Source: Prorocentrum cordatum (lineage: Eukaryota). From it: a stretch of DNA of 64,000 nucleotides. A model generated the notes under the pieces. It was not told where the DNA came from, ran no database searches, and saw nothing but the letters and a program-made list of their open reading frames with translations. The position numbers were made by a program, and so were the translations under genes. Positions 282 to 21,700 of the stretch are shown in pieces; the stretch's first letter is position 1; each line of letters opens with the position of its first letter. The stretch spans positions 124,001 through 188,000 of the forward strand of contig CAUYUJ010000225.1 of the NCBI GenBank assembly GCA_963575745.1, read 5' to 3'.

Positions 282-2232
282 TCGTACGCACCTCTCCGAG
301 GGAGTAGAGCTCAAAGCCGATTAATTGAAGGCGGCGTCCGCGATTTTTCTGGCCGTTTCGCTGGGGGCATCTTCGAAATTCTGAAAATCGGTGGCACCCA
401 TCACGCAGATCGCGACGGAAGGGTCCAAAAACACATGGGGATTTCAACATTCGAACATAAAATCTTCAAAAACACATTGTATTTTCAATGATTTTGACCC
501 TGGTCCTCAGAGAATGGCGATTTCGCCTGAGACATCCTCCCAAAATCGAGCCCCCACGTACCTTCTGGTACCCCAGACCCCACCTCGGAGTTTCTTGACA
601 GCCTCCTCGAAACTCCTGGGGTTTTCTGTGCCTTCTGGTACCCCAGACCCCGCCTCGGAGCCTCCTGGGGGTCTCCTGGAACCGCCTGGGGCCTCCTGCG
701 GCCTCCTGGAGCCTCTTGGGGTCTCTTGGAGCCCCCTGGGGCCTTGTGGGGCGTCCTGAAGCCGCCTGGGGCCTCCTTGGGCCTGATAACTACATGCGCA
801 CGCAGAGACACAAATCACACCCAACACATCACACGCTAGACAAAAATAACACACACACACACACACGCACACACACACACAGACACACAGACACACAGAC
901 ACACATACACACACACAACACCTGCAACGCACAGAAAACACGCACAACACAGAGCACACATCACGCACATTTTTTTGTCTGCGGGGCGAGAGCGAAACTC
1001 CTCTGCTAAAAGCTAGGCGGGCGACGCGCAGCTTTAATCAAGGAGACAGGGCACAGGAAGGCGGGGCTTCAGGTGGCCAGAGCAGGTGGAGCCCGGGATG
1101 CAGGCGGTGCCGAAGAGCTTGCGCGGGAAGAAATACGCCGCTGACGAGAACCGGGGGCGAAAACCCGGAAGGCGAAATAGATGGTGTAGCAGTCAGCGGC
1201 GCGTCGCGAGCACCAACATCAAGCACAGCGGGGGAGGACGCGCCACTTGACCAGGTCGACGCCCAGGAAGGAGAAGAACACCAAGAATGCGATGAGCAAC
1301 GTTGTGCCACCGGATGATGCGGAGGAGGCCCAGGAAAAAGAAGAACACCACGAAGGCGAGGTGCATCGTTGTGCCACCGGGTGATGTGGAAGAAGCCCTG
1401 GGTGGTAGTCCAATCCACGACAAGGTAGTAGCCTGCTTGAGGTGCGGCCACGGACGAGGGGGCCGTACATGACCGACAGGGTGTCGGTGGAGTGCAGGGA
1501 GAAAACCAGCCCTGCACCGTCAGCGCGTGGAGACGGGCAGCAACCACACACGATGCACTGACATCTGCATGCCGAGGGCCGGGCCTGAGCCGCGCAGCGC
1601 CATGGCGAGCGGGGCCGCCGAGGCGGCAAGGTGCAGCGCCCAGCACCGGGCCGAAGCCGCGCAGCGCCGGGCGCTGCCGCCATGGGAGGGTGGGAAGGGA
1701 GCGGGGGGGGAAGAAGCCAACAGGGAGGAGAAAGGCCGGCGCGCCACGCCAGCCGTCGTCGTGCCAGCCCGCGCCGTAAGTGCTCACGTGGGGGGACTGG
1801 GTCCCGATGGGTACAGGTAGGACACACGGTCCCAGAACATGTTAAAGACAGGTGAAGGGGGGGGAGCAGGTACAGTCGGAGACCAGGCGGATCAGCAAGC
1901 GGTCGCTGCGCGTGGGCCGTGCACGTCACAAGTGCTGCGGGGGTACTGGTAGGGGGGGAAAGGAAGACACGCGCTCCCAAGTCAGGTGAATAGGGTGGGG
2001 GAAGGGAGCACAGATGGTGGGGGTGGCCAGTGGTGGGTAGGACCTTGACCTTGCCGCAAGTTGCGGGAGCGTAGGAAGGCAGTCGCGTCGCGCGAGCAGG
2101 GGGACACACGGTCCCAAGCCAGGTGAAGAGGGAGGGGGAAGGGGGAACAGGTGGTGGGCGTGGCCAGCAGTGGGTAGGACCAGGACTTGGCGCACGTTGC
2201 TGGGAGCATGGAAGCGCCCGCGGCGTGCTGTG

Positions 2233-5200
2233 TCAGCAAGGGGAGGCCCGGTCGCCGGCTGGGCAGCGCCTAGTGCGCTTTCCGGTCCAGTTGTCGTTGT
2301 ACCCAGAGCTGCGTGCCCGGTCGTCTCCGCGCCCATCACCTTTGGCGACCTTTCTTTTCCTCTGGGCGCCCTGGCACAGAGCCTTCTCACGATCCCTGTC
2401 CACGTGGACGCCGGTGTTGCGAGACCACGCCTCCACGTGATGGTTGCCGGTGTCCATGTCTTCCAGGAATTTGTCGATTATCCAGCGTTGCCAGCGGTTC
2501 GGGTCGAAAGCGACCTGGTCTTTGGATTTGCCCTTGCCCTGCTCCTTACACATATGCCTGCGCCACGAGTGCCAGGCTGCGTTGAAGTGGTATCATCCTT
2601 CTGCCTGCAGGCGTGTGATTCATGTCTCGTGTGGGCGGCGCTGCCAGCCGACGCGGAAGATTGTCCCTGGGCGGCTGGGGTCAGGGTGGTGGCGGTCATC
2701 CCTGTGGTAAGAGCTGCGCGGTTCTGGCTGGCGCCAGGGGGTGCTCCCTGTGCCCCTGCCACTGTCGTGGTCCTGATCCCAGTAGCGCTCCCTGGTTATG
2801 TCCCAGTCGTTGGCGTCGTGCTTGCGCCACGGTGCCCCCGCTGCGCCCTTGTTGCGGTCGCGGTCGCGGTCGCGGTCGCCCTCCCCAGCGCGGGTCGGGT
2901 CGCTAGTCTCTCTGGACGCGCGCCTTGCCGCAGTCTCGCACGACTCTCAGGCGACTGGCTCCCGCGCCCTGCCGCGCAAGTGCTCTAGCTCGTGCGCAGG
3001 GAGGGGGGTGAGTGCTGGGCGTCGGTCTTCCGGGCCTTTGGACCTGGTCCGCGCGCGCAGCGCCCGGCTGTCGGCAGCGGCCGCCAGGAGCGCGCCGGCA
3101 GGCTGGGTCTGGTAGGTACTGCTTGAATCGCGCTCGGGACTGCTGCGTCGTTCGCCACGAGGACTCGTCTTGGCTTGGCCCTCCTCGACTGTGTCGGAGT
3201 CTGAGGATGAGGAGACCGTGTGGACCGTGCTTAGGGCCTCTGCGAGGCTCAGCTTCTTCTCTTGTTCCTGGTCGTCGTTGGTCAAGTCGGGGTCCTCCTC
3301 CTTAGGGGGCACAAGGGGCGCAGGTTCGTAGGTGGGATCTTGTGTGTCTGCACGCGGCGCGCAAGGTTCGAGCTTGGAGTCGGCCTGCGCCCTTCTGGGG
3401 ACGTCACTTTGTCGCCCCCGATGTCGGCGCCGAGCCTGGGACTGGCGGGGGCCGCTGGTGCCTGCGCCCCGTGCACCTCGCTGTGGGTTCTGCCCAGGAA
3501 GGCTGCTGCCCGGGGCGCTGCGTCTCCGCGGAGGACGTTCGCGCGTAGCGTCCTGGCACTGGTGCCCCATGCGTCCAGCCACTCGCTGCCGATCTGGACG
3601 AACAGGGTCCGCCCGTCCTGTTCGCGGGCCAAGACGTTGAGGACAGGTCCGAATACCGCTCCGTCCAGGGGCCGCGTCGACAGGGGCTCGTTGCTCTCCG
3701 CCGTGCTGAACCATCTGGCGCGGGGGCGGTGTCGCCCCTGATGACCGCGTAGTCGCCGCCCTGGATGCACGGGCTGCCCGTTGCGAGCGGGCAACAGGAG
3801 CCCGTGATGGGCGTGTCCGGGACTCGCCCTTGCTGCCGCTCGCGGCTGCTGGGTTCCGCGCACTTTCCGGGGGGTTCACCGCGCCGACGGCCGGTGGCGC
3901 CCCGACGGACTTGGTAGCTGTAGGTCTTGTGGCGGGCGGGGCCAGCGCCGGCTGGTCGCCGCGCGGAGTGGGCGGGAGTGAGTCGCCACCGTGAGTGGGC
4001 GGGCAGGGTGTCAGGCGCCTTTCCTTGGCGGGTCTTGGGCACTCAGCCTGGTTGGAGGCGTGGTCGGGGCGCGCGCCCGCTCGGGGGGCGGTGTGCTGCC
4101 GGGGCTCGCTGCTGGACGTGTGCCCGGTGGTTGGCTGGGCTGAAGCCGTGGCGCTGGGGTCTGCGTGCCTGGCCCCACGGCTGCGCGCCTCCTCGTCACC
4201 TTCGTCCCTGATCTGTGCCGCCACTTTCGCGTGCGTCTCCCCGTCCGCCGGCTGCCGCTCCCAGGCGAGGTGTTGCCGCTTGTCCTTGGGAGGTGGCGGG
4301 AGTGAGTTGTGGAGGCGCTCGTGGTAGATGCGCGCCTCCTCGTCCCAGGCAGCAGCACGTCGCTGCACTTCCTCCTGGTTGGGGCGTGCTGCGACTTCTG
4401 GCGACGAGGCGGGGATGCCCGGTAGTCTGGCTCCAACGCCAGGGTACACGTCAGGGCCATACCTTTCGAGTGCCTGCTTCACTGCTGACGGGGCCATGTC
4501 CCATTGGTGGGCCAAGCACCCCTTGCAGCACCAGCCCGCGTGCCAGCGCTTTGCCAGGAACGTCTCCCTCATTAGTTGCATGGGTGGGAGCCCGTGGACC
4601 AGGCCAAAGCCGGCGCGGAGTCCTCCTGTGTCAGCGGCGTGCCCATGCATGCCAGGGTAAGCCTGCCCTGGTCCCCATTCGTGCCCCTCTATGCCCGGGG
4701 GGCAGCCGTCGCATCGCCAGATGCCGACATTCTTCTCGTGGAAGTGGGAGATCAGGCGATCGTCATTCGCGTTGCTGGCTGGGGGGGTGGTTCCAACATT
4801 AAGAGAACTCAGGTCGCCTTCCAGCGGGGCCAGCAGCTGGTCCAGGGGTGTTGGGGCCGTGGGTGTTCACGTCGGACACAGTCCCGGCAGGGCGCGCGTT
4901 GTGCGCACAGGCATGTCGTCGGGGCGGTCGTTGATCCAGTCCTTGAAGTCCACGTCGTCTGGAATGGGCTGTCGCTCTGCCATGGCCTTCGTGGTCCAGC
5001 AGAAGATGCGCAGCAGGGTGGGGTCCCTTCCTTGGTAGTACTCCGTCAGCCTGTTGACCGTGCTGGTTTGGCGGATCCGCTTGCTGACGTAGGCGCCTTT
5101 GTCGTGCTTGAAAGGGCCGCGTAGGCGCCCTTGGCAATAGAAATCGGCCTTGTTCTGCTCCTTCGCCCACCGGGTCTCGGTCGTCGATCCGCGGGGGCCC

Positions 5201-8200
5201 TAGCGTCACTCCAGGGCGTGGCCCGGGCGGGGCGGGCGCGTCCAGGTGCAGGCGCGTGTGTGAATGCCGTCCACCTATCCAGGTGACGCTGCTTGTCTGC
5301 TTAGTCGGGTCGTCGGCGGGGCATGGCGAGGCCGATGTCGGACCCAAGCGCGCCAACGTAGAGTGCGCATGCGGCGCGCTCCTGGAACGCCAGGGCTGAC
5401 AGGTCGGCGGTAGACGCGGTGCCTTCGATGACCGCGAGGGTGGCCTGGAGTGGGAATTTCCTAGCCACGAAGTCCTTTCAGGCCGCGGGGCAGTTCGCAC
5501 TCTCGGCCCGGGGGTGGCGGCGGGCGACCATGACTAAGCGGGATACCGCGGTGATCAGGAGCTCCAGCGCCGAGTGCAGCTGCTTGAAGTGCTTCCACTG
5601 TAGTCCGAACGGTGCGCCTAGCTGGTCGCGAGCAGTCTGGTCGCGCGGGCGGTGCGGCTCGCACAAGCCAAGGATGGCCTCGATCACGTCTCCAATGCCC
5701 TCGGCGCCCCCGGACGGATACAGGCAGGTGCGCGATTCGCGTTGCATGGGCAGGGACAAGGCGAGGAGGATCCTGGCCTGGATGGCGCCCAGAGTCGCGC
5801 CGGTGCTGTCCAGGAGGCCGTTGAGAACTGTGGCCTGGCGCCCCTTCGGGCCCATGTCGCAGAAGGCTTGAAATACTGGCGGTGTGGGTGGCTCCTTGTG
5901 TCCTTGTGCCTTCGGCACTTGCAGGTGGATGGCTGCCAGCATTTGGGTCTGCGCCTGGGGGCGTCTGCGGGGATGCAGGCTTCCTTAACGTGCCACGCTG
6001 TCGGCATATTCGGTCGGTCCCTTCGGGGCGGGATCAGGCTGGGGCCGACTGCGCGTGCGTTGTCGTCGTCCGCGACTCCGAGTCCTATAGCCCACATGAT
6101 GGTCGCGAAGACCGCCGCGTAGACCAAGTTGCCGGCGTCCAGTCCTACAAGTGCAGAGCAGAAAAAGAGGTACCCGTTCATGCTCCATCCTTCCCGTCCT
6201 GTAGGCCGGGGTCTGTTGGCTGATCCGAAACGCCGTGCCGGTGCGGATGCAGCCCGAGGCACCATAGTAGGCAGGGTCCGAATGCTGGGCAGCCTGGTAG
6301 TCTCGCCGCTGCAGCGTTGACGTCGTCCTCCAGGTCCTTCCAGTTTTGGTCGGCAGGGAGCGGTAGGTCGGCGCGCGCCGAGAATCCAGCCTGTTGAGCC
6401 TGACGGGCCTCGATCACTTCCTTCTCCTTTCGTCTGCGTTCGGCTTCCGCCAACGGCCGGGCCTTCTCCTCTGGGTTGGCGGTCTCGGGGATGTCCTCCT
6501 CTAAAACCTTTGAGTCAGCCGTGGACTGGCGCGGGGATCCGCCCCGGTTGATGTGGAATTCGAAAGCGAGGTCTGCCTTCTGGGCCCAGGTGCTCAGGTG
6601 ATGGAATGCAGCGTCTGTGGCCGTGCGGAACATCCTTGCGCCCGCGGTCATGATAAGGTTGCATTGTTGGCGCGTCAGCCCCACGTCGACGCGGTGCTGG
6701 TCGTCCACGTGGCCCCAATTAAGGATGGAGTTGGCCCGGGTGGTCATTCGGATGACGACGGAGGCCTCTTGCCCCTGGGCGGCGTCGATGGCGGCGACGC
6801 GGATCGCCTCGCTTTCCAGGAGGTCTGGAAACAGGTTTGCGATGCCACTGAAGCGTTCGCTCAGGCCGTTTGCCGCCGTGGCGCGATTGATCTACGTCCC
6901 TCCTGTGGGCCCCTGCCCCGCCCCCGTTGGCGCAGGGGGCCGGGGCCGCCCGTGTTCGTCTCGGATCCTTCCCCTTGCGCCGCCCGCGAGCAGCGTCTGA
7001 TGTCGTGGGCCGTGCAGTGGTTGCCTGCCAGCGCGGGGGTCAGCTGGAGCTTGTACGCCGACAGTGCGAGGATGGTGCTGTTGGTCCTTCTTACCCATGG
7101 TACGAGGGCCTTCACAAGGGCAACCACTGCGCGCGCTTCGTGGGTGTTGGCGCAGCCGCCCTAGATCGTGGACTGAACCTCTTGCGAGGGGATGTGAGCA
7201 AGTATGGAGCGATGCCGATCGTAGACGGCGCCGCCGATTCCCTTCGGGGCCATGCACGCTGCGTTGCTCTGGAATCCGCCTGCGGCGTCGATCAGGGAGT
7301 CGTCGGGCTCGTAGTTGCCGTCCTCGTTCCTTGCTGCTTCGTCTTCTTGGTCGGTCAACGGTCGTGCGAGTGGCCACCCCAGTCCTTCGGCGCATGGTCG
7401 CTGTAGCGTGGGGTCCAGGATGGCGGAAACCAGCCTGCCCCTGTGGAACGTGAGCGAAGGCCATGCGAGCAGGGGCGGATGGATCCGATAGCACCCCTCC
7501 AGAGTGACGCTGCACTCGGGGATGTTCCCTATGGCTGCCACGTACTTGGCGAGAATGGACATTCCTAGCCCCCAGCGCAGTGCCTGCTGGGATTTGACCG
7601 TCGGGCACAGCTGCCGCTCGTCGCCGAAGAGGACCGTTCTGGCACCGCATCTGACAGCGTGGTTCAAGGACATGATGGCCATGGGCTCGGACGTTTGTCC
7701 TGCCTCGTCGAGGAGACATCTGGGGAACTTCTTGTCCCAGAGGTCGGCCCCCGCCTCGCGCGTGGCCAAACTAAATTTTGCCTCTGTCGCGACTCCCTCT
7801 CGGAACTTGCGGAACCAGCTCGCGTGCCCCGTGGTGACCTCGCCCTCCGATATGGCGTGCACATAGGCGTACTTGGCGGCGGGGGTGGTCGTGCCACGCT
7901 GCCCTTGACCTTGTCCTCATGTGCGAGTCGCGCGGCCATGCGCGGGAACGGGTCTTTGTTGGCTGGGTTCAGGTTCTTTCCAATTTGCTCTGCTGCCAGG
8001 TTGTCCATGGATCCGCCGGTGCCGCCAAAACACCCCACGCCCCGCCCTGGGGCGAGGCGCGACATGTAGGCGTCCGCCACGCAGGCCGCGACCTTGGTCT
8101 TCCCGGTTCCGGGAGGCCCGTGGCACAAGGGAAGGAGAGAGTTCTGGGTCGCAAGCACGCAGCGTCGTTGGGCGTCGCTGGCGCGGTGCAGGTTACAGAT

Positions 8201-9199
8201 GTGCTCCAGGTGTTCCTCCTTAGGAGCCGGCAACAGTCGTTGTAAGACGCTCCCCGGGAAATCCTCCGCCTGCTGAGCCGTCAGTGCGGGTGTGCCCGTG
8301 CGCGGGTTGGCGCTGGGTTGGTCGGGGTCGTCGATAGCGCGCTCCAGTGTTACCGAGGCCTGCGCCAGCAAGAGATCTGCCGCTTCGCCCTGAGCCGGCG
8401 CGGCCCGGGCCCCGGCCTTGCCGTCGCAGTCCTCGCGCCGAAAAACGAACGCCCAAACGATGGGCGGGAGGGCAGTGCCCCAGAGGGCCGCCCTATCGCA
8501 CCCGACTGAAAATAATTCCCGTATCGCCGCGTTGACCCTGTTGAATTGGGCCTTCCTCGGGGTGCGATCGACCGTGTAGTATTGTTGGCCCGGGCTTGGC
8601 GTTGGAACTGTGCCGTCGTTGTCGTGAAAGGGTCCGTTCCTCCTGGCGTTGTAGTGGGCCAGCGCGATTCCCGCGGGGCAGCTCCGGTCTGCGCCCGAGA
8701 CCCCGGCGCCGGGGGCGGGAGGCCAGACGCGGGTCATCTCTGCCAAGAAACCCACCGTTGGCGAGGACTTGGAGATTAGGAAGGGGTTCGGGGTGCCTGC
8801 CGTCACGTCGCGCTCTGTCCACTCCATGGCCCACTTCGTGTCCCAAACCAGCAGGTAGTACTCGCTTTGGCCCTGTTGTTGTCCTTTGAGCCGCTCTTGC
8901 CGGTGGTGCCTACTCAGGATCTCCTGGCACTGCTCGTTCGGCTGGAAACAAGTGAGGATCTGCACGTTCTTGCTAGCGATGACTTGCCAGGACGTGGTGG
9001 AGCCGTCGTTGGGCGGCTCCACGTCCGCGTGGAACTCGGTGAAGAAGACCCTCCTTAGCAGCTAAAGAGCTCGGGCAAGGAGCTAAAGTTTAGTTCCTCG
9101 CCGTGTAGTTGCAGCCGTCGAGCCCAGTCGGTCGGCGGCGGGACTGCCCCTGGGACTGGTCCTGGGCAGGGGCGCGCTGCCGAGCCGCTTGGGGGCCAT
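2233..9199 (-). pseudogene. Large multidomain protein (~2300 aa if repaired), broken by frameshifts and stops: Upf1-like helicase, RNase III-like motif, Cys-rich and unknown domains
   Basis: Likely start ATG GCC CCC AAG CGG (MAPKR) at 9199. Protein-like segments continue across ORFs 7664..9022, 7161..7862, 6861..7127, 6178..6747, 5684..6265, 5478..5942, 2947..4650, 3282..3863 and 2233..2553. Confidence 0.65.
6600..8190 (-). pseudogene. Superfamily 1 helicase domain, Upf1/DNA2/NAM7-like (AAA_11/AAA_12 type)
   Basis: Motifs in the correct order: Q-motif SDAQRRCV, I HGPPGTGKT (~8096-8119), II LLDEAGQ, III LFGDERQLCP, IV LEGCYRIHP, then NTHEARAVV and LSAYKLQ, V SIDAAQGQEA, VI HRVDVGLTR. Several frameshifts separate them. 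Confidence 0.92.
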
Positions 9200-9764
9200 G
9201 TACCAAGGGGCGCGCACATCACACGCACAACACTCACACTCCCGGGGCCTCCTGGGGCCTCTTTCGGTATCCAAGTCGGGCCTCCTCTGAGGTTTCCTGG
9301 GGGCCCCTGGCACGCGCGTCGCAGGGCGCGGCAACCCCACTTGCGCCCGAGCGCGACCTCGATCTGAGATTCTCCTGCGTTCACCTCCTGCCTCTTCCCC
9401 TCTCTCAAGCGCGCCCTGGCGGCGCCGCCCCAGCTTCTCCTTCTCCATCTCCGATCCTGCAGTCATGGTGTCTTCCTGCTTCAAACGCCCTTTCATTTTT
9501 TGATATGAACCTGGGCACACACGTGCCACTTGCATATATAGCTCGCCCCCCCCCCCCCCCCCCCGCGCCTCCAAACGACGGACTGGGTGGGTGGGTGGGG
9601 GGGGGGCATCCTCCGCATCTTCCTCCTCTCCCCATCCTCATCTCCTGATCTCCTCATCTTATCTCTTCTCCCCCCTCCTGCTCCATTGAGTCTAACTGAC
9701 TTGCGAGCGCATGGGGCCTCCGACGAGCAAACGCTGGGAGCGCGCGGCAGGGGCTGGCCTTGAC

Positions 9765-10650
9765 AGCGCTGTGTTTTCCAGCTTGTCCAGCTTTTCCTAG
9801 AGACTGCCCCGGTGAAAAGCGCTGCGTTTTCCAACTCTTCCAGCTTTCATCGCAACGAAACCATTGAAAAACGCTGTGCTGTCCAGATTTTCGAGCTCCT
9901 CTCAGTTGAAAGACGTTGTATTTTCAAGCTTTCCAGCTTTTCCCAGAGATTGCCCCGTTGAAGAAGGTTGTGTTTACTAGCTTTTCCAACTTTTCCCAGA
10001 GACCCCCCCGTTGAAAAAAAACGCTGTGTTTTCCAGCTTTAGCAGGGCAATGCGCGGGAGAAGCTAGAAAAATCTCGAAAAGCAGGAACACACAGCGTTT
10101 TTCAATGGGGTAGTCTCTGGGAAAAACAGGAAAGGCAGGAACAGCTGGGCAATGCAACCTTTTCCCACGGGGTCGTCTCTGGGAAAAATGGAAAAGCAGG
10201 AGAAGCTGGAAAGCACAACGTTTTTCAATGGGGTCGTCTCTGGGAAAAAAGGGAAAAGCAGGACAAGCAGGAAGACACAGCGTTTTCCAATTGGGCAATC
10301 TCTGGGAAAAGCTTGACAAACTTGAAAGCACAGCGTTTTTTTTCCAACATGGTAATATCTGGGGAAAGCTGGAAGAGCAGGAACAACAATGTGTTTCAAT
10401 GGGGTATCTGGGAAACGCTGGAAAAGCAAAATAAGCTGAAATCACACAGCGTTTTTCAGCGGGGTAGTCTCTGGGAAAAGCTGGAAAAGCAGGAAAAGCT
10501 TGAAACGCAAACGTTTTTCAATGCGGTAATCTCTGGGGGAGGCTGGGAAAACAAACGAAGCAGGAAAACGCAGGAGCATGAAACCATGGCGTTTTCAATG
10601 GTTTAGCTGTGGCGAAAGCTGGAGACGCTGGAGAAGCTGGAAAACATAAC
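9765..10650. repeat. Two head-to-head arrays of a ~55-65 bp degenerate minisatellite
   Basis: The unit ACAGCGTTTTTCAATGGGGTAGTCTCTGGGAAAAGCTGGAAAAGCAGG repeats in 10060-10650. Its reverse complement (TTTTCCAGCTTTTCCCAGAGAC...TTGAAAAACGCTGT) repeats in 9765-10040. Confidence 0.85.
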
Positions 10651-10723
<73 letters not shown>

Positions 10724-10829
10724 TGTGTGGGGGGGGGGGGGGGGGGGGCTCATGGAAAAGCTGGGGGAGGAGGGAGGAGGAGGAGGAGGGGGGGGGGGAG
10801 GAGGAGGAGGAGGAGGATCGAGGCGGATG

Positions 10830-13800
10830 ATGCCCGCGGGGTAAGGCAACTGCGCCGATCCACAAGTACTCCCGCGCGCGCCCCCGCGCGCGCCCTCGCC
10901 TCGGCGCGGTCGCGCGCCCGAGGCCGTCAGGCAGGCCTCGGCCTCACCTCGTGCAGCCCTCAGCAGCCTCGCCACCTTGGCGGCCATGCCTGGCGAGCAG
11001 CTTCTCTCCCGCGCGCGGCGCCTCGGCCTCGGCCGCGCGCCGCCGCCGCCCGCAGCCCCTGCTTCGCTTCGAGCAGCAAGGCCACCTGCAAGCGGCTGGG
11101 GCCCCTCCGGCATCCTGGCCTCCTCGGCCGCACTTCCGCCTCCCACGGCCCCTGCTTCGCATCGAGCAGCAGAGCCACCTGCAGGCGGCTGGTGCACCTC
11201 CTGCGCCCTGGCAACCTTGGCCTCACGCTGCCGCGGCGGCGCCGCGCTGCACGCGCGCCTGCTGCGCCTCTGGGGCGCGCCCCCTGCCTTGCCGCCCTCG
11301 GGCGGCTCTCCTCTCGTGGTCTCCAGCAGCGCGTCCACGTCGACTTCCTCCGCGCCGCTGGTCTGCACCTTGCTCACTCCTCCTGGATCACCTGCTTCGA
11401 CCATCCCCTGCGAGCTGCCTCCTTCATCATGTGCAGGCAGGTATGCAGCCGTAGCCTCCTGCACACCCGCGCCCGCTCCTGCCGCCGCGGCGCTGGCCTC
11501 CGCTGCCTGGTCTGCCCGTCCGCCAGCCACCTCCGCGTCAAGCAGCTCCCCGCAGAAGTCGTCGAGGCGCGCGATGACGAATGGGACCACCCTCGCTGTG
11601 CGGGGCGCGAGCCCCCGCTGCAGCTTGGCCACCACCGCGCTGCCCGACGCGGAAGGCGGCATCTTGCACTCTCCGCTGAAACCGCATACCCTGGCGGCTC
11701 CCGCGATCCCGCAGAGGCGGCAGGCGACCAGCGGCATCCTGCGCTCCAGCTGCTCATCCACGGTGGGGCGGATGACCACCAGGTCGTGGGCGGTGAGCCC
11801 CTGCTGCCTCAGCCTCCTGTTGGCCTTCGCCGCGTCCGCCACGATGGAGCCTGGGCACTCGCCCACTCTCTCCTCCGACCTGCAGACTTCGCACCACCTG
11901 GGCTGCCCAGGCAGCCCGCGCCAGGTGCAAGCCACCTGCGCTGCTGCTGTGCGCCTCTCAGGAAGAGCCCGCTGCTGCTTCACCTTGCCGTGCGTGGTGT
12001 CGCTGCCGTCAACCCAGGTGCCCACAGCCGAACACCACAAGGCGACCCTGTCCACGAGGCCTCGGCTTTGCGCAAGGCGCAGGCGCTCCTGGCCAGGCAG
12101 GCGCCCAGCATCGGCTGCCGCCTTGGCCGCGCGGTCGGCCAATCGATTGCCGTGCCAGTCACGGTGCGACACCTTCCCAGCCGCCACTTGCTGCCTCGCG
12201 CTGTGGCTGGGCATCCACCTCAGTTGCACCTCGCCGCCCAGCCCTCCACGTTCATCCAGCAGCGCCCAGGCCTGCCTCCACAGGTGCGCCCAAGAATGAT
12301 CACTGGCCGTCGTACGCGCGCGCCCCGCCTGGTAGGAGCCGTCGAACACGTACTTCGAGTCCACAACCAGCACAGTGTCACCGTGCCCGTACCTCTGGGC
12401 CATGATCACTGCCGTGAGCTCGCTGCCGTTGATGTCGACGTACGGGCCAACCACCTGTCCAGCGACCGACGCCCTGTACACATCCTCACCCTGCATCAGC
12501 GCGACGGCACTCCAGCCCGCCGCCGTGAACTCACCGTAGTCCGCCTCGAACACCGAGCCGTCCAGGAAGAGCTCCCCAGCTGGCAGAACGCCCTCCTCAT
12601 GTTCGCCCTTCCAGCATACCAGGTCGCTGGCCTGAGGCTTGCGCACCCCCCCCGGCACTGGCCACAGGCACCTCCCCAGCAGCAACTGGATCCCAGGCTG
12701 CTGCCATCTCCTCCTGAGGTCTTCGAGGTCTGGGGGAAGGGCCAGCACCTCTCGCAAGCTAGCACAGTCACAATGCCTGTGCACCAGGGTGCCCTCCAAA
12801 CCGCACCTTAGACACCCCGCGCAGTTGGCCAGCCCTTTCTCCGCCTTCCGTGCCTGCGTCCACTGCCCGTTGACGATCAGGGACCGCAAGTACGCCATCT
12901 CGCGCTGCGTGAGCCGCGCCTTGACTTTGCCAGCCCCTCCTCCCTGCAGCCCCTCGGGGTGGAGCACTCTCCCTGTGGTGGTCAGCCTCACCAGCGGCTC
13001 GAGCTCCCCGCCTGCTGCCAGGTGGCTGCACCCTGGGTGCTTGCTGACTTGCCTCCACTGCCACCTCAGCACCGCTCGCATGACCAGCTTACGCACGACC
13101 CACGGCGCTACGTCGAAAGGCGCGATGGTGTTGCCGTCGTCCATGACCCAGCCGTTGGCTTCTTGCACCTCCCACCCGATTCTCCGCAGCGACATCACCG
13201 TCGCAGCGCATGGCCCCTGCACGTGAGCCCAGGTGGTTGCCCTTTTGTCCTGCAGACCGCGGACAACCATGTGGAAGGGGCACCCAGTTCTCCCACACCG
13301 CCCGCAGCAGCATCATCACGGGCATGCAGGTCGCGTCGATGTTCGGGTCGAGCCCAGGCTGAAGCATCAGCCCCAGCGACCTGCTCTTGCTGGCCGTGGT
13401 GTTGGAGACCGCCACGAACGACATAGTCCTGGCGCGGTCCAGCTCACCCATCGCGCACCCCGTGATGGCCGTGCCGTAGCCGATGCTAGGGTGCAGCCCC
13501 GTCTTCACAACCCTCTTAGCTGCGATCCTCTTGGCCTTCACCACCTTCAGCACCTTGAACTTCCTCAGCCTTTGCCCCGCCTGCTGGTAGCGGCCCTCGC
13601 GCACCGCGCGCCCTAGCCTCTTGCCCCCGCTGAAGTCACCCCCCAGGTTATGCTCCTGCCGCACCGCCAGCACCCCCAGCGGCTTGCGCAGCCTCTTCTC
13701 CAGCTCCTGCCTCGCCTCAGGGAAGTTGGCGAGGGCTCTGGACTTCTTGACCGCGACCGCCAGGTCCACCTCGCTGAGCAAGACCTTGAAGTGCCCTGGC

Positions 13801-16173
13801 CGCTGCCGTGATGTCCCCGACGACGCGCTGCATGCCCCCAACCCTCCTGATGATGATGTCATCTACGACCACCGAGAGGGCCACCGTGGGCACCAACGCC
13901 TGCAGCCTGTCCAGCGGCTCCAGCAGCAACATCTTGAGCATGAGCGTTGCCAAGCAATCTCCTGGCAGCACAGCCTGCTCCGTGTAGATGGCGTCGCTGA
14001 CCGCTTCGTCGCGCGCCAGCCACCTGGCACCTGGCCGACCTGTACAGACTGACCTGGAGCTTGAGCTGCCACAAGGGGAACCCCGTCTTCGTCGCTGCAC
14101 GAATGAGGTGCCCGTGCTGCACCTGCTCGAACGCCTTGAGCAAGTCCAGGAGCACCAGCGCGGCGACCCAGCTGGAGGCGTCGCCAGTCTCACGCCCTTT
14201 GGCCGTGGCCCACTCGCACTTCACCGCCTGCTGCCAGACCGCCCTCTGGCAGCCCTTCCCTCTGGACGCCCAGAAGAAAGGCCGATCGTTCCTGCTCTTC
14301 CACTCGACTGCCGCTGGCCTGCGCCGCCTCGTCTGGATCCTCGCGAGCACGTGGGCGATGGCCACCGGCCTCACTCCTCCTAGCCTCTTGGCCAGGAAGA
14401 CGATATTGTTGTTCAGCTGCGGCCACTCCGCCGCCATCTCTACGGCCATCACGACGTCGATGAGCGTCTCGAGGCCCTCGTCACTCAGCTCCAGGAACTG
14501 CCGCGGCTTGACTGCCTCGAAACCCGCCGCGGTGCCCTTCCTGAACGAGCGCAGCACCGCCTTCATCTCCTCCACTGTCCGCCTGCCAGGCCTCACACCC
14601 AGATCGCCTGGCCATGCCGGCTCCTCATGGGCGCACTGCACCCTCCAAAGCTTGCCCCATTATTGCTCGAGGGCGTCCAGCTCCTGGCAGAGGCTGTGGG
14701 GGCCTGCCGCGGAGCTGCAGTCGCTGCCTTGCCAGCCGACAGCCACTCTCGTGACTGCATGCTGCCCTCCCGCTCCTCCCTTCAGCTGCTTGTCGACCCA
14801 TTCGTCGAACTGCCTGCCGCGCTCGTCGGTGTCACGCCTGGCGAGCTGACTGGCGCGCACCTTGGCCAGCCTGGCCAGGGTCAATAGGGCCACGGGGTCC
14901 CAGCTCGCAAGCCCTGCATGCTGCAGCACCCTCAGCCACCTGCCCGCCTCTGTGCTGTCATGCTTGCCTCCCAGCTCACTCTCGGCCTGCTCTTGCCACA
15001 GCCTGACCCTCTGAGGCGCCAGCTCCGCCAACCTGGGCAGGAAGCCGAGCGCATCAATCCGACCTCGGGGCGCTTGTGCCCTCGCCGCAGCCTCCAACGT
15101 GTTTGCCACCCTGGCCATCCACGCTGCTTCAGGCGTGTGCCTCGGCGCCCGCGGCTCCTGGATCCCGCTGCGTTGCACCCTCTTGGTGGAGAAGCCCTGC
15201 GCCCTGCCCGCGTACCTGTCCCTCTGGTCCTCCAGCTGGTACACGTCCAGCCACTCCTCCTCAGCGCACTCCAGGAAGGTGGCGAAGGCAGCGGTGGGCG
15301 CGTCCTTGGCGCGAGTGCCCTCGCACTCCAACTCGCCTGCACCGCCGCCTCTCCTCCAGCACCTCCTCGCGCCTCCACGGGAGGCGGGCGGCCTGTCTTC
15401 CCCAGAGGCTGGGGGGCCTCGCGCATGCTCCTTCAGCCGCTTCAACCTGAAATGGACTACCCGCGATTACATACGGTGCCTGGCTCGGATGCATGCTGCC
15501 AGTCCCAGCATGGGGAGCAGCTCCTGGGCATCCTTCATGCCCCCGCTGCTCCGCCACCTCCTCCTCCTCCTCGGGACGGCGGCACCGTGCTGGATGCACC
15601 GTGCTGGATGCCAGTCGGCACCGTGCTGGATGCAGCACTTGCTTAGGTTGCGTCCAGAGGCTGCTGCGGCCAGCGTGGGCGGGGGCGGCAGCGCGCTACC
15701 GAGGGGGCCCCACCTTGCCCTCTGGCCCTCCAGTGGTTTTCCGAGGATGCGATTGGCTATGGCAGCGCCTCGGGGCCACCGCCTTCCCTCCGCACGCTGC
15801 TGCTGGCCAGAGTCACCAGTCCAGTCCTCCTCCTGTGGTATTTCGAGGATGCCGTTGGCAGCGCCTCGGGGCCGCCACCTTCCCACTTCGCTTGGCCTCC
15901 AGCTGGCGGCGGCGCCGCCCTCCCGCGGCCTTGTCTGCTGGCTCACCGCGACGACCAGCGCGTGTGCCACTGCTGAGTGCCTCGCGCCTTTCTCAGCCTC
16001 ATGTGGTTTTTGTTCGAGGATGCCCTTGGCAGCGCCTCGGGGCCACCACCTTCCCTCTTCTGGTGGTCGCCCATCAGCCTCGGCGCCACCCATCTGCGGC
16101 CTCGCCTTCTGGCCTTCGGCTCCGACCAGCCCGCGCTCTGCCTCTTCGCGGCCAGCGCCTGCCTCCCCCTCGA

Positions 16174-16216
<43 letters not shown>

Positions 16217-17253
16217 TTTATTCTTTTTCCGAGGATGCCCTCGGCAGCGCCGCGGGGCCACCACCTTCCCTCTGCGCGCTCCTCCATGCGCGCCACCTCT
16301 GCCTCTTGTTTTTTTTTTTTTTTTTCGAGGATGCCCTCGGCAGCGCCTCGGGGCCACCGCCTTCCCTTCGCACTCCTGCGGTCCTCAGCCTCGTCGCCCT
16401 CCTCTAGCGCCCTCGGCTCACCAGCAGCTGCTGCCAGGCCTACTGTTAGCTGCTCCCTCACGCGCTTCCTCGCCCGCACCCAGCTTCTGCGGTGATCCCT
16501 TGCACAGCATCCGTGCGGCCTTGCCTCAGGAAGCGCCCGAGGCCTCTGCACCACCCCCATGGCGCCCTCCATCTTCTGCTTGGCGACTTCGGCGATGACT
16601 GGCGCGTGCGGTTACACAGGCGAACCCGCCACCACCTGAGCTCCCTGCGCGAGCAGCCCGCGCGACACAAGGAAGTAGTCGATGATCCGCCCTGACGCCA
16701 TGCAGGTGGGCCCCGCGGGTCTGACCACGGACGCGTCGAAGAGCGCCAGCACGCCGCCTGCCTGCAGCTCGTCATCACTGAGATTCCAATCCCCGCCGAT
16801 CACGTACTCTCTGCGGCAATGCCTGAGCCTCCTCGCCAACAATTTGAGGCTCGACATGTTGCTGAGGTTGAGGCCCTCCCCCGCCTCCAGGTACAGGTTG
16901 GCAATCAGAAAGCCGCCGCCACAGATGCCCGAGACCCAGTGCACGTGTACTCTGCCGTCCACCAACACCGCCGCCTGGTGGTCCTGGACCTCCGCCATCC
17001 CGTGGCAACGTCACACCATGGTGATGGGCCCCCCAGTGCTGAGCCCACCTGACTCAGACCTCAACGCTGGCGAACTCCTTGCCCGCCATCCTTGACCACG
17101 GAGTTGAGCCTCAGCATCTCCGCTCCTCCCCTCTAGCAGCCTGGTCTCCTGCACCAGGATGGCGTCGCAGCTCTGCACCTCCTTCACCATCAAGCACTTG
17201 CCCAGGCTGCTGAACGCGTTGACATTGACCGTGCAGATCCTCCAGACGCCCAT
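10830..17253 (-). pseudogene. LINE ORF2: apurinic endonuclease, reverse transcriptase, RNase H (frameshifts and stops)
   Basis: APE: RICTVNVN, ILVQETR, IGGDWN, IDYFLVS. RT: FLAKRLGGVRPVAI, LDLLKAFEQVQH, VLPGDCLA, VVVDD. RNase H: LFLDGS, NGSELTAV, VVDSKYV, WMPSH, GNRLADRAAK. Confidence 0.92.
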
Positions 17254-17260
17254 CCCATCG

Positions 17261-18394
17261 CTAGGACTCTGAGTCCTTCTCCTCCTCCCCCGTGCGCATC
17301 TTCTTGGCATCATTTATGAGCGCCTCAGCCGCCTTCCTCTTGCCAGGGTCCACGAACTGCTCCTCCAGCTCCTTCCAAGCCTGCTGCACCTCAGGGGATG
17401 GCTGCAGCGGCCGAGGCTCCGCCTCAGCAGCCGACCTTGCCACAGCCCCAGCCCTCGCGGGTGCAGCAGCGCCAGCTCCCGCAGGAGGCGGCTGCACAGG
17501 ATCTGGCACCGCAGCACCCTCTCCTGCCGCCTTGCTCTTCCACTCGAACAGCTTCTCGACCGCCTCAGGCAGCTTGACGAACCCCCCGCAGAACACTGGG
17601 TTGGCCGCCACCCCGCTGGACTTGGCCCAGCCCGCGAGCGTCGCCATGACCTCCTGCAGGGAGGCAGGGGTGGCGGACGCTGCCGTCGCCACCTCGGCTG
17701 CCACGGCGGTCCCCGCCAACCTGGCACTCTGAGCTGCCAGCGCCTCGCGCGCTCTGGCGGCTGCCTCGGCCAGCTCCTGCCGCAGCTGCTGCAGCTTCTC
17801 CGTGAGGTCCGCCGTCTCGTTGATGGCCGCCCTCGCCTTCGCCTTGGCCAACTCCAGCATGTGCCCAGTCCGCTTGACCTTCTGCGCCTTCTCGTCAGCC
17901 AGCAGCTGGGCGGCTTTGACGGCCTTATCCTTGGACAGGTCGTCACCCAGCCCTTCGCGCACCAGCCGCCTGGCCTGCTGGAGCTCGCTCCTGATCTTCG
18001 CACTGAACAGCTTGGTCGCGATGGCGAACTGCCCATCTGACATGCTGACGAGCTCACGACGCTCATCGTCGTTGAGCACCACTCCCGCAGCACGCTGACC
18101 TCCTTCACCGCACTCATCGCCTCGCCACCGCGGCGCACGGGTCGCAGGCGCGCCAGCCCCAGCACGTCCACCACGCCCGCCACCGCCAGCGCCAGCAGGA
18201 GCACCGCCACGACCTTGAGCCCCTTGCGGCAGGAAGCTGCCCAGGACCCTCTGCGACGGCTTGCCTCCACCCTGGCACGCGTGGCGACAGCGCACTCGCT
18301 CGGCGAAGTTGTAGTAGCTGCGCTCCTGGCACACCCATCCCAGGGGCCCGCCTGAGCGACCTCCCCCGCGCCCTTGCCCCGCGCCGCGCCCCAT
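17261..18394 (-). CDS. LINE ORF1 (nucleic-acid binding; RanBP2-like zinc finger + coiled coil)
   Basis: Open ~377-aa ORF directly upstream of ORF2. It has an RGG-rich N-terminus, WVCQERSYYNFAERVRCRHAC (degenerate W-x-C...N-x6-C zinc finger) and an A/E/K/Q-rich helical stretch. Confidence 0.75.
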   Translation of the reverse strand: MGRGAGQGRGGGRSGGPLGWVCQERSYYNFAERVRCRHACQGGGKPSQRVLGSFLPQGAQGRGGAPAGAGGGGRGGRAGAGAPATRAPRWRGDECGEGGQRAAGVVLNDDERRELVSMSDGQFAIATKLFSAKIRSELQQARRLVREGLGDDLSKDKAVKAAQLLADEKAQKVKRTGHMLELAKAKARAAINETADLTEKLQQLRQELAEAAARAREALAAQSARLAGTAVAAEVATAASATPASLQEVMATLAGWAKSSGVAANPVFCGGFVKLPEAVEKLFEWKSKAAGEGAAVPDPVQPPPAGAGAAAPARAGAVARSAAEAEPRPLQPSPEVQQAWKELEEQFVDPGKRKAAEALINDAKKMRTGEEEKDSES

Positions 18395-18498
18395 CGCGCG
18401 CAAGACACTGGAGGAGACGCGCCCGACTGCCAGAGCGCAAAGACTCTTGCCTGCCGCGGACTAGCGGCATCCGTTCGACCCCCTCGGGAACCTGGCAC

Positions 18499-18520
18499 CT
18501 TGAGCCAAAATGGCTGCGGA
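18499..18520 (-). other. Dinoflagellate spliced-leader (DinoSL) copy at LINE 5' end
   Basis: The minus strand reads TCCGCAGCCATTTTGGCTCAAG versus the DinoSL consensus DCCGTAGCCATTTTGGCTCAAG (21/22). Confidence 0.95.
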
Positions 18521-18749
18521 GGAGGATCGAGGCGGAGGAGGACGACGACGACGACGAGCAAGCGATAAGTGAAGGCTTTGTGATATTTGTGGTTTGGGGG
18601 TGCTGGAGGGGGGGGGGGGGGGGCGACCATATATGTGTATATGTATGTATGTATGTATGTCTGTATGTCTGTCTGCCTGTATGTATGTACGTACGTGTGT
18701 GTACATATATGTGTGTATATTCGTGTGTATGTCTAGATGTATATATATA

Positions 18750-21700
18750 CAAGATGTTAAGGCTCGCTGCGCTTCGCCTTCTAATCTTGACCCTTGCACC
18801 CACGATGTTTCTGGGCGCGGGCGAGAACCTTTTTGTTCAATGAGGTGCGTGGGAAATGCGCGAGCGGAGGCGAGGCGAAGCGAGTGCGCGGTAACGCCCG
18901 GGCTCATCGGAGAGATGATGTGTCGACGGGGCTGTGCCGTCGCCGGCGCTTGCAACCCAGGTAGCGTAGTCGACGTCGCGGTGTGGTCGGTGGTTCACCT
19001 GCAAAGCGTAAGTAGTGAAAAGCTCCCATGTAGCAGATGTCCGAACACTGTCGTTGACGATAGAGTCCCGCGTGCCTCCTTTCACAACAGGAGGAATCTG
19101 GCGGAAATCCCCATAGCAGACGAAAGCCTTGTTCTTCCAGATGGTAGTGTGGTGCTGTTGAATGTGGCCCAATAGTTTGAGGGCGCTCTCCCACGCAGGT
19201 CGTTTAGCATTTGGCCATTCATCCCATTGGAGCACAGACGCCGCGGCGAGGGCACCGGCACCTTTGGAGCTCATCGGCAGAGAGCAAGTGAGGACGTCCT
19301 CGTCAGGCACCGGAGTCTTGCAGAAAGAGTGCGCCGTGGCGCCGAATGGGAATTGCAGGGCCGCGACTCCTTTTGGCCATGTTGACGACTCCCTGTCCAC
19401 TCCCCAAAGCAGCGTGAGTGATGGAACTGGTGACGGTGGATTTGCCTCTGCCAGCGGGGCCGTGGGCGAAAAAATACTTTTCGGCCCCGGCGCGGATGGG
19501 CGCGATTATCGATTTGACGGCGTCGGTCTGACTCGGATCCTTTGAAAGGTATTGTAGATGGTCTTCGCGCGGGATTGCGCTTCTTGCGGGGGAAATGGCG
19601 CCGCAGAGGTGTCTGGTGCTGGGGATGGTTGAGACCGTGCAGGTTTGTCTTCTTCCAGCGTGAACGATTTGCCAGTGCACCGGCACGAGAGGCGCAAAGC
19701 GTCGCACGCAGCTTTGCGGGCGTAATCGAGAGTGAGCCCGCGATCGCGGAAATCACCGAGGAGATGCTTCTCGAACTTGTTGCACAGCGTCACGGCGCGC
19801 GCGTCCTGCTCGAGCAACGCGACGAAGGCGAACCGTAGTTGAGCGGCAGTGTATCGAAGCTCGTCTAACTCCTGGAGCACCCGCGCGGGTTCGTCAGCTG
19901 TCGCAAAATACCCGGTCGCCACAAGGGCTTGCTCATAAGTGGGGTACCTCCGGCCGGCGTGGGTTTTGCAGTCGGCGAAGCTTGGTTTTGGGTAGTTCAA
20001 CAGTATGTGTCTGAGGTAAAACACCAGAACACCTCTCTCTGTTCGGGGCACTTCATTTCCTGCCTGCATATAGGATGTTCGCCCCGTTGCTTCTCGTAGA
20101 CGAAGTGGGTCCGACCTGGGGGGGCAGCGTCGAGCACGGGCGCCAGGGCCCCGTCCGGCGGGGGGGTCGCCGAAGGCGCCGCAGCCCGTGGGAAGAGGTC
20201 GGGAAAGTGGTGCTGCAAGGCTTGCGGGCAAGATTTGGCCACCATGAAGCGCTCGAAATATTCGCAGTACTTCGTGGAGAGGTGCGGCTCGAACTTGGGC
20301 CGGTGGAATTAGCGTTGCAAAAACGAAATAGACGATTGTACGGCGTCCTCTTCTTGTCCGGCGGCATAGGTGATCCAATCTTCGTCATCGCAATGCACTG
20401 GTGGACAAACCACATGAGGGATGCGTTCATACATAGTGTAGCCAAACATGCGCCACGCGCATTCCGTGGCACAAATATAACGGCCACGCTGCTATTATTT
20501 GATCTCGTCTTTGTTGCCAGTGTCCTCCTGGAGCTCATACTTGACAAAGTCTGGTCCTTTGAACGGGGACTTGTAAAGGTATTGGAACAGGTTGACGGAC
20601 CCTGCGAATTTGACATTGGCGTGTCCGTCTCACAGCAGGAGGATGGTGGGGTTGTATTTCACGATCAGCCGGTTGCAGCAGGCAGATCGTTTGCCGTAAG
20701 ATGCGGTCCCAGACGCGCAATTGGGGCAGTCACCGCCACAATGTCTGCGGCGGTGATGTGGATACCCTCGCTCGTCAAAGTACGCGTCGTCTTGGAATGG
20801 CCACGGGCGCCATTTGATGCACTCCTGAGATGGGTCGTCGGTGCGGCACGAATGGTTGCACGAGTGTATCATGTGTTGAAGGACGAGTGCGCGGACAGGA
20901 CCGTCTGGTGGAAGTTCGCATGAGACGAAGGTGTCCACGGCTTCGGGCGTAGTTGGCGGCGTTGTCAGGGCTATGGCAACGTGAGAACGGGGCAGCCCTC
21001 TGCGCTGATATTCAATACCCTGATGACGCACCTGCGGTCTCCACAGAACTCACGCTTGAGGTGCGCCATCGTCTTCTCCAATCGAGCGCGGAATACGCGG
21101 ACCACGATGTCTGGGCGGTCTGCTGCTGTCTGGCCCGGATGCAGAGTGGCAGTGGTCTCGGGCCAGTATGGGTTGCACGTCAACGTGATGAAGAAGGTTG
21201 GCGGGCCTTTTCGCCGAGCAAGCCCCAGGGAGTCCATTCGGAGCTTGCGTAGGTGGCGGGGGGACCCGGGCACGCTCGAAAACAAATATGCACTCGTGCC
21301 AGGGAGGGGCGCGTCATTGGCGAGGGCCTCGCACATGTCTTCTCGTTTGGAAGTTCGTTGAGCCTGTGCTCTGCGAAGAAGTCCGAGCCTCTCATCCTCC
21401 ATCATGCAGTGCATGTTCACGAGCCACTCGTTCACGAGCCGCCCACGTAAATTCATGCGCGGGCTTCGTAGGAGGTGTTAACGGTGCCACCACATCTGTG
21501 TGAGGCGCTGCCCCGCGTTCGCGAGCATGTCGGCGCTCCGTCCGCGGCCGCCGCGGGGAAACCAGAGCGGGTAACTCAAGGGCTCGTAGAGCGCGCTCAG
21601 CGGGTTCATGTATTGCGGCGTGGGACACGAGTTCCTTCGGAATACGACAGACCGGGGCGACGCGTCCACGCGGGGTGTTTCATGGACAATCGCAGCGAGC

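What the first reader, a model, noticed from the sequence alone, without database searches (positions are those of the whole stretch)
5478..6190. Possible RNase III-like domain directly after the SF1 helicase
Seen: GIGDVIEAILG (GDVIEAILG at 5667-5693) resembles the second RNase III catalytic motif (D-x-x-E-A-x-x-G), within a region that reads as mostly helical. The first motif (ERLEFLGD) is not clearly present; GLDAGNLVY is at best a degenerate candidate. Known: Dicers pair RNase III with an SF2 helicase, not SF1. Inference: an SF1 helicase-RNase III fusion would be a new dsRNA-processing or silencing-suppressor architecture.
Basis: inference. Interest (0 to 1): 0.7.

Follow-up and report, generated by a model that had tools for sequence, protein, structure and literature searches.

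The report
Helicase fused to RNase III-like domain
A broken copy of a repeated, probably jumping gene carries an RNA-unwinding motor joined in one protein to a conserved helical domain that looks like half of the double-stranded-RNA cutter RNase III, a pairing that may help the element dodge RNA silencing but whose fold and activity are still unproven.

Summary
Both motifs are real: GDVIEAILG at 5667-5693 and GLDAGNLVY at 6119-6145, minus strand, in different frames. Window 9058-2302 is a decayed copy of one long gene. An intact 2,945-aa relative (P0005) is collinear with it and holds an Upf1-like SF1 helicase and both motifs in one polypeptide, so the fusion is real. In the family the second-motif Glu is invariant (19 of 19) and the Asp is kept in 15 of 17. 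The first motif is D-A-[GS]-N-x-V-Y in 3 of 3, so the catalytic E41 and D45 equivalents are missing. The RNase III fold is plausible but unproven. Pfam gives no hit, hhalign gives P=0.007, and two low-confidence models gave no significant fold match. The copy is multi-copy, cut off at its 5' end inside the gene, and ends in a short A run, like a truncated LINE insertion. Best reading: the cargo gene of a giant LINE, whose helicase and weak or non-catalytic RNase III-like domain handle the element's double-stranded RNA against silencing. It is not a Dicer. I found no such architecture in print; this scan noted it once before.

The parts
970..9213 (-). Whole inserted copy (about 8.2 kb) of a multi-copy element, truncated at its 5' end inside the gene
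   Evidence: 2,925 contigs of run X1, mostly under 99% alike, cover all 30 bins of 300-9700; summed depth is 22-308 in the bins from 1242 to 9091, 1,236 in 928-1241 and 0.5 in 9406-9700. Ends inferred.
9214..9229 (.). Candidate target-site duplication, right copy (CACATCACACGCACA)
   Evidence: Differs from the left copy by a 2-base indel; weak on its own (score tied 3rd-4th of 1,064 bins, CA-rich sequence).
954..976 (.). Candidate target-site duplication, left copy (CACATCACGCACA, 957-969), next to a 7-base T run (970-976) that is an A tail on the minus strand
6570..9058 (-). Upf1-like SF1B helicase region, broken: GPPGTGKT 8119-8096, DEAGQ 7709-7695, GDERQL 7625-7608, YRIHP 7490-7476, IDAAQGQE 6789-6766, RVDVGLTRQQ 6693-6664
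   Evidence: Pfam AAA_11 E=4.7e-9 and AAA_12 E=1.3e-10; collinear with P0005 311-1150; P0005's best PDB hits are yeast and human Upf1, E=3e-21.
6200..6570 (-). Conserved linker between the helicase and the domain, same frame as helicase motifs V-VI
   Evidence: tblastn of P0005 1035-1276 to 6879-6154, 43% identity.
6119..6145 (-). GLDAGNLVY: candidate degenerate first RNase III motif; Asn (codon at 6130-6128) stands where D45 would be
   Evidence: GLDAGNMVY in P0005 and GTDASNHVY in P0015; PSSM support weak.
5906..6090 (-). Pro/Cys-rich insertion of about 65 residues between the two motifs, absent from P0015
   Evidence: N-to-E spacing 146 in P0005 and 82 in P0015; alignments A1, A3.
5667..5693 (-). 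GDVIEAILG: second RNase III-like motif; Asp codon 5690-5688, Glu codon 5681-5679
   Evidence: E in 19 of 19 and D in 15 of 17 aligned rows that cover it.
5325..6200 (-). Whole conserved helical domain (RNase III-like core plus a C-terminal helical extension with conserved C, H, E and AHHH), broken by two frameshifts and one stop
   Evidence: phmmer: 24 relatives at E<=0.001; 47-48% identity to P0005 1249-1547.
3937..5232 (-). Downstream Cys-rich module of the same gene, no known family
   Evidence: 31% identity to P0005 1579-1984 and 26% to P0008 165-556; no Pfam hit.
2233..3936 (-). Low-complexity C-terminal part of the gene, homologous to the end of P0005
   Evidence: tblastn pieces to P0005 2412-2919.

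Best explanation
This is a dead, 5'-truncated retro-copy of a long cargo gene, most likely the extra 3' ORF of a giant LINE in a dinoflagellate-type genome. SHOWN: the intact form is one protein of about 2,950 aa with an N-terminal C2H2-like motif, an Upf1-like SF1 helicase, the conserved helical domain and a Cys-rich module. INFERRED (about 0.55-0.6): the domain is a divergent RNase III / Mini-III-like fold. INFERRED: it keeps the second-motif Asp and Glu but has Asn for D45 and no E41, so it would bind double-stranded RNA as a dimer and cut it weakly or not at all. INFERRED mechanism: the protein loads on the element's long RNA, the RNase III-like domain engages duplex segments, and the helicase unwinds or strips them using ATP. 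This denies host Dicer its substrate and protects the transcript from silencing.
For: Fusion and collinearity. Helicase class. Acid conservation. hhalign puts GDxxEA on RNase III D114/E117, score 23.4, reached by 0 of 60 block-shuffled controls. Against Mini-III it places both motifs in register, but weakly (P=0.04; 3 of 60 shuffles reach it). Spacing in the compact relative P0015 is 82, against 79-83 in 81 Mini-III and 70-73 in 111 RNase III sequences. Gly at +15 from the first-motif D is seen in 64 of 112 Mini-III windows and in all 3 family sequences. Both motifs lie on predicted helices. Multi-copy with higher depth at the 3' end; A run and candidate TSD. Precedents: LINE-borne SF1 helicase as silencing suppressor (PMC5563155, abstract and section 10); non-catalytic RNase III paralogues with zinc fingers (PMC9508840, passages).
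Against: No RNase III hit in Pfam for the window ORFs, for 12 proteins or for 23 of 23 alignment members, nor in PDB sequences. My own RNase III and Mini-III HMMs give at most 4.3 bits. hhalign probability is only 1-5%. First-motif PSSM scores are negative: rank 44 of 2,921 in P0005 and 79 of 1,166 in P0015 with the Mini-III matrix. Only 3 sequences cover the first motif. Only 1 of 24 hits holds helicase and domain together. The hits were found with a query that contains the motif, so conservation is partly circular, and six other columns are as invariant as the Glu. This copy has no reverse transcriptase; the link to a LINE rests on end features and on unchecked earlier notes. No function was tested.
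Confidence: 0.4

Rival explanations
1. The domain is an active RNase III-type nuclease with a rewired site, in which the conserved first-motif Asp (three residues before the Asn) or the invariant Glu of REPR replaces the lost acids. Helicase and nuclease together destroy double-stranded RNA or siRNA, as viral RNase III suppressors do, or process the element's own RNA.
For: E invariant 19 of 19, D 15 of 17, E of REPR 17 of 17; D-A-[GS]-N kept in 3 of 3. Viral RNase III suppressors need catalytic activity (PMC4352025, abstract).
Against: The signature E and D are catalytic in RNase III and are kept even in the divergent Entamoeba enzyme (PMC5357909, passages); here they are L/A and N. Two of 17 rows have G for the second-motif D.
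Confidence: 0.18
2. The domain is a real conserved helical module of another or new fold, perhaps metal-binding through its conserved C, H, E and HHH. GDxxEA is a helix-start motif that resembles RNase III by chance. The protein is then an Upf1-like RNP-remodelling helicase with unknown accessory domains.
For: No library hit; hhalign support comes mostly from one motif; first-motif PSSM scores are negative; the best-predicted part of both models is the helices after the motif.
Against: Two motif-like segments in the right order at Mini-III spacing, with both acids conserved; 0 of 60 shuffles reach the RNase III score.
Confidence: 0.35
3. The gene is a host gene family spread as retrocopies or carried by a non-LINE element, not a LINE cargo ORF; its role would be host RNA surveillance rather than counter-defence.
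For: No RT, transposase or integrase in 970-9213. The adjacent LINE-like element at 10828-18518 has its own 18-bp flanking repeat and is a separate insertion.
Against: Intronless, collinear with an uninterrupted 2,945-aa ORF, many diverged copies. Earlier notes, which I could not check, report such a gene behind an RT in 26-kb LINEs of this genome.
Confidence: 0.15

Closest known systems
Mini-III / class 1 RNase III domain (PF00636)
   Same: Helical; D-x-x-E-A-x-x-G second motif; G-x-x-V-Y first-motif shape with Gly at +15; motif spacing 82 in the compact relative versus 79-83 in Mini-III.
   Different: No ERLEFLGD; N for D45 and no E41. Mini-III has T or S, not D, three before the Glu (79 of 79). 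A 65-aa insertion in this subfamily, a long helical extension, no dsRBD by Pfam, and embedded in a 2,945-aa protein.
Dicer
   Same: A helicase upstream of an RNase III-like region in one chain.
   Different: SF1B helicase instead of the SF2 type (Dicer's SF2 helicase is recalled knowledge). One candidate domain, not two. No PAZ, DUF283 or dsRBD hit. First catalytic motif degenerate.
Insect TRAS and Jockey LINEs with an SF1 helicase (PMC5563155; abstract and section 10 read)
   Same: Retroelement-borne SF1 helicase, proposed and in one case reported to suppress RNA silencing.
   Different: Those helicases are of RNA-virus origin and sit inside ORF1 or ORF2. This one is closest to cellular Upf1, lies in its own ORF and is followed by the RNase III-like domain.
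Non-catalytic RNase III paralogues KREPB4-10 of trypanosome editosomes (PMC9508840; passages read)
   Same: A zinc finger plus an RNase III motif lacking key catalytic residues, acting through dimerisation and RNA binding.
   Different: Small mitochondrial subunits without a helicase. No homology was tested; the likeness is one of design only.
Viral RNase III silencing suppressors CSR3 and PPR3 (PMC4352025; abstract read)
   Same: A selfish element encoding an RNase III against RNAi.
   Different: Canonical, catalytically active class 1 enzymes, not fused to a helicase.
SymbioLINE-Dnmt (PMC5890265; passages read)
   Same: Dinoflagellate LINEs carrying a captured enzyme as a separate ORF.
   Different: The cargo is a DNA methyltransferase in ORF1; the word 'helicase' occurs 0 times in the main text. 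Supplements not read.

Membership tests
RNase III domain | Signature ERLEFLGD with catalytic E and D | tested here: not met
   GLDAGN, GLDAGN and GTDASN in window, P0005 and P0015: N at the D position and L/L/G-type residues around the E position. Signature as given in PMC5357909.
RNase III domain | Second acidic pair D-x-x-E (D114/E117) | tested here: met
   D 15 of 17, E 19 of 19; aligned to D114/E117 by hhalign.
RNase III domain | Significant profile similarity to known members | tested here: inconclusive
   No Pfam hit; hhalign P=0.007, probability 5%; 0 of 60 shuffles reach the score. Family alignment is shallow.
RNase III domain | All-alpha RNase III fold with both motifs brought together | tested here: inconclusive
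   Model 1 pLDDT 51, pTM 0.37. Model 2: 10-residue blocks over 91-210 score 53-88, but the first-motif helix scores 28-54. No significant match in six fold searches.
RNase III domain | Dimer formation through the signature helix | not tested
   The complex predictor was not available.
RNase III domain | Metal-dependent dsRNA cleavage | not testable with these tools
   Needs a bench assay.
Mini-III | Motif spacing of about 80 residues | tested here: met
   82 in P0015 versus 79-83 in 81 sequences; 146 in P0005 because of an insertion.
Mini-III | Small stand-alone protein with LAYxGDAVY | tested here: not met
   Embedded in a 2,945-aa protein; D replaced by N.
Dicer | SF2 helicase, PAZ and two RNase III domains (recalled definition) | tested here: not met
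   Pfam on P0005 finds only SF1-type helicase families at E<0.02.
Upf1-like SF1B helicase | Motifs I, II, III, V, VI and AAA_11/AAA_12 match | tested here: met
   All found in P0005 and, in broken frames, in the window; nearest solved structures are Upf1.
LINE (non-LTR retrotransposon) | Endonuclease-RT ORF in the same element | tested here: inconclusive
   Absent from this copy, which breaks off inside the gene near P0005 residue 300; no genome was held. Earlier notes report it in other copies; unchecked.
LINE (non-LTR retrotransposon) | 5' truncation, 3' tail and target-site duplication | tested here: inconclusive
   7-base A run, imperfect 13/15-base repeat in CA-rich DNA, higher depth near the 3' end. 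Each is weak alone.

The most novel reading that the evidence does not exclude
Giant dinoflagellate LINEs encode a dedicated anti-RNAi protein, an 'anti-Dicer': a zinc finger, an Upf1-type helicase and an RNase III-fold domain with a rewired active site in one chain, which unwinds and either destroys or hides the element's double-stranded RNA. It would be an SF1 helicase-RNase III architecture and a transposon-encoded RNase III-fold counter-defence, neither of which I found in print.
Probability: 0.3. Interest if true: 0.8.

Novelty: new variant of a known kind. Interest (0 to 1): 0.55.

Why it matters
Whatever its fold, this is a conserved domain family absent from Pfam, fused to a cellular-type Upf1 helicase in a repeated element. 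If it is RNase III-like, it gives a helicase-RNase III design outside the Dicer line and a testable case of a transposon carrying virus-style counter-silencing machinery in dinoflagellates. The intact relative P0005 and the compact relative P0015 give ready constructs. The score is held down because the fold is unproven, this copy is dead, the fusion is intact in one relative only, and the scan has noted the same gene type before.

Tried and rejected
Word-index protein searches found nothing; one search covered only 30-34-aa proteins and is uninformative. ESM Atlas gave no usable hit. No related loci in metagenome contigs or viral contigs. No RNA holder listed. Runs X2 and X3 laid 0 and 28 records. 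Fold searches listed no significant RNase III. Human Dicer (rank 6, E=1.1) and Entamoeba RNase III (rank 26, E=2.8) appear among the Foldseek rows for the second model, but the rows are not significant and give no ranges, so I do not count them. Both VIA runs on the 1,190-aa model were filled by C-terminal coils and barely test the domain. NCBIfam and PHROGs gave nothing relevant for the domain. Rejected: my early idea that a 1-base deletion at 6298 in two contigs restores the frame; P0005 shows the helicase frame continues through 6298. Rejected: that the LINE-like element at 10828-18518 is the parent; it has its own flanking repeat. Rejected: my recollection that the Entamoeba enzyme has Asn in the first motif; it has all four acids. 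Paper searches for this architecture returned 0 papers; one search returned only the insect LINE paper.

Full report
Observation. The minus strand at 5667-5693 reads GDVIEAILG and 6119-6148 reads VGLDAGNLVY. No ERLEFLGD appears in the three minus frames of 900-9300. Upstream lie broken pieces of an SF1 helicase: Pfam AAA_11 (E=4.7e-9) and AAA_12 (E=1.3e-10), with motifs I to VI between 8119 and 6664. None of the 17 ORFs scanned hit an RNase III family at E<=1. The window is GC-rich, repeat-rich eukaryotic DNA. That it is a dinoflagellate is my inference from its look and from earlier notes; no call of mine established the organism, and no genome was held.

The gene. A phmmer search with frame -3 of 6299-5223, read with X at three stops, found 24 relatives at E<=0.001 among 1.84 billion representatives. 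P0005 is an unbroken 2,945-aa protein. It aligns collinearly with window 9058-2302 over residues 311-2919, in pieces of 23-48% identity. It carries GPPGTGKS (629), DEAGQ (765), RINVGITRAR (1097), GLDAGNMVY (1278) and GDVLEA (1425). Its nearest solved structures are yeast and human Upf1 (E=3e-21). So the window holds a decayed copy of one gene in which an Upf1-like helicase is followed, about 170 residues after motif VI, by the domain in question. The true frames are -2 to about 6200, -1 over 6229-5906 and -3 over 5900-5325. P0005 also has a C-x2-C-x8-H-x5-H motif at 44-62, which I read by eye as a matrin-like zinc finger (recalled pattern; Pfam did not detect it); the window copy lacks that part. 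Only 1 of the 24 hits contains both helicase and domain. P0008 starts inside the domain and shares the downstream Cys-rich module. P0015 has the domain at its N-terminus with unrelated sequence after it. The other 21 hits are fragments of 64-191 aa.

Conservation. Alignment A1 has 21 of the 24 hits plus two window pieces. I left out P0010, P0020 and P0023, which are largely off-frame products of close copies. Among 139 columns with at least 10 residues, the Glu of the motif is one of seven invariant ones (19 of 19) and the Asp is kept in 15 of 17; the two exceptions have Gly. The caveat is that the hits were found with a query containing this motif. The first motif is covered by only three sequences and reads D-A-[GS]-N-x-V-Y in all.

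Is it RNase III? I built reference sets from tool-fetched loci: 116 RNase III and 115 Mini-III segments. These were retrieved by first-motif patterns, so that motif is fixed by construction. hhalign placed GDxxEA on D114/E117 with score 23.4, P=0.007, probability 5%. None of 60 block-shuffled controls reached it (maximum 18.4) and the reversed profile scored 9.1. Against Mini-III both motifs fell in register but weakly (P=0.04; 3 of 60 shuffles reached the score). The distance from first-motif D/N to the second-motif E is 70-73 in RNase III, 79-83 in Mini-III, 82 in P0015, and 146 in P0005, which has an insertion of about 65 residues. A Gly at +15 is shared by 64 of 112 Mini-III windows and all three family sequences. 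Against: PSSM scores for the first motif are negative and rank only 44 of 2,921 (P0005) and 79 of 1,166 (P0015) with the Mini-III matrix, and 543 and 50 with the RNase III matrix. The second motif ranks 2 of 2,928 and 7 of 1,173 with the RNase III matrix, at scores of -0.9 and -10.2. HMMs from my sets gave at most 4.3 bits. Pfam, NCBIfam, PHROGs and PDB sequence searches found no RNase III.

Structure. AlphaFold2 on the P0005 domain gave pLDDT 51 and pTM 0.37. On whole P0015 the blocks over residues 91-210 scored 53-88, but the first-motif helix only 28-54. Both models are helical and put both motifs on helices. Six fold searches gave no significant RNase III match; those on the long model barely tested the domain. 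The fold test is inconclusive, not negative. I put the RNase III-like fold at about 0.55-0.6.

Catalysis. RNase III uses the signature E and D plus D114 and E117, and even the divergent Entamoeba enzyme keeps all four (PMC5357909, passages; PMC4521922, passages). Here the second pair is kept and the first is not. If the fold holds, the plain reading is a weak or non-catalytic RNase III, as with the KREPB paralogues that lack key catalytic residues (PMC9508840, passages). A rewired active site using the conserved first-motif Asp or the invariant Glu of REPR is not excluded.

Context. Run X1 lays 2,925 contigs on 300-9700, of which 195 are 99% alike or more and 1,205 under 90%, with cover in all 30 bins. 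Summed depth is 22-308 through the body, 1,236 at 928-1241, 1,038 at 9092-9405 and 0.5 beyond 9405. This shows a family of diverged copies; the tool warns that depth is not a copy number, and X1 may be the source strain. Homology to P0005 stops near its residue 300, and I found no convincing match further up. At 970-976 there is a 7-base A run on the minus strand, next to CACATCACGCACA, and CACATCACACGCACA lies at 9215-9229. That pair is weak statistically (tied 3rd-4th of 1,064 bins) but sits where the ends are expected. Together these fit a 5'-truncated LINE-type insertion of about 8.2 kb. The LINE-like element further right is separate: it has its own 18-base repeat at 10810-10827 and 18519-18536. 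Earlier notes on this genome describe 26-kb LINEs with an Upf1-type third ORF, one with a probable RNase III fold. I could not check the link to an RT, and a repeat of the idea is not independent evidence.

Mechanism. Shown: one protein with an Upf1-like helicase, this domain and a Cys-rich module. Inferred: it binds the element's RNA, engages duplex segments through the RNase III-like domain and unwinds them with ATP, which starves host Dicer of substrate. Insect LINE helicases have been proposed to work this way (PMC5563155, abstract and section 10), and viruses use RNase III against RNAi (PMC4352025, abstract). Overall confidence 0.4. Rivals: an unrelated fold (0.35), an active rewired nuclease (0.18) and a host gene family (0.15); the last can overlap the others.

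Novelty. Searches for dinoflagellate + transposon + UPF1 + RNase III, RNase III + SF1 helicase + fusion + domain architecture and RNase III domain + UPF1-like + fused + Dicer each returned 0 papers, in a library limited to open-access PMC and bioRxiv. PMC5890265 (passages) does not mention a helicase; its supplements were not read and could bear on this. Searches were seen as listings only. It is not a Dicer and should not be filed as a canonical RNase III, since the signature test failed. It is best called a new variant of retroelement-borne helicase cargo with an RNase III-like domain of unproven fold. Interest 0.55.

Noticed in passing
window 10828-18518 (-): LINE-like element flanked by an exact 18-base direct repeat (10810-10827 and 18519-18536), with a Pfam RNase H hit at E=1.6e-6. 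Pfam found no RT in the broken ORFs tested.
   Followed up: partly
window 18840-22963 (-): Decayed Helitron-like element: PIF1 (E=9e-24), Helitron_like_N (E=6e-29) and, at its N-terminal end, a Stc1 domain hit (PF12898, E=4.8e-8). Stc1 links RNAi to chromatin in fission yeast (recalled); here it may be just a Cys-rich finger.
   Followed up: no
window 3937-5232 (-); P0005 1579-1984; P0008 165-556: Conserved Cys-rich module after the RNase III-like domain (YCQG, CxxC pairs, GLPP) with no Pfam family.
   Followed up: partly
P0015 residues 45-250: A compact version of the domain without the 65-residue insertion and without a helicase in the same predicted protein; the best construct for structure work.
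   Followed up: partly
window 9760-10660: Array of degenerate repeats of about 58 bases in both orientations, between this element and the LINE-like element.
   Followed up: no
window 26790-30260: About 3.5 kb of degenerate TTAGGG-like repeats, resembling an interstitial telomere-type array.
   Followed up: no
window 39807-40098 and 50586-50881: A 296-base direct repeat, 94% identical and about 10.8 kb apart; could be an LTR pair or two SINE copies. No Pfam hit of note in the ORFs tested between them.
   Followed up: no
window 25727-26641 (-): PAP_fibrillin hit (E=8e-7), probably host gene exons.
   Followed up: no
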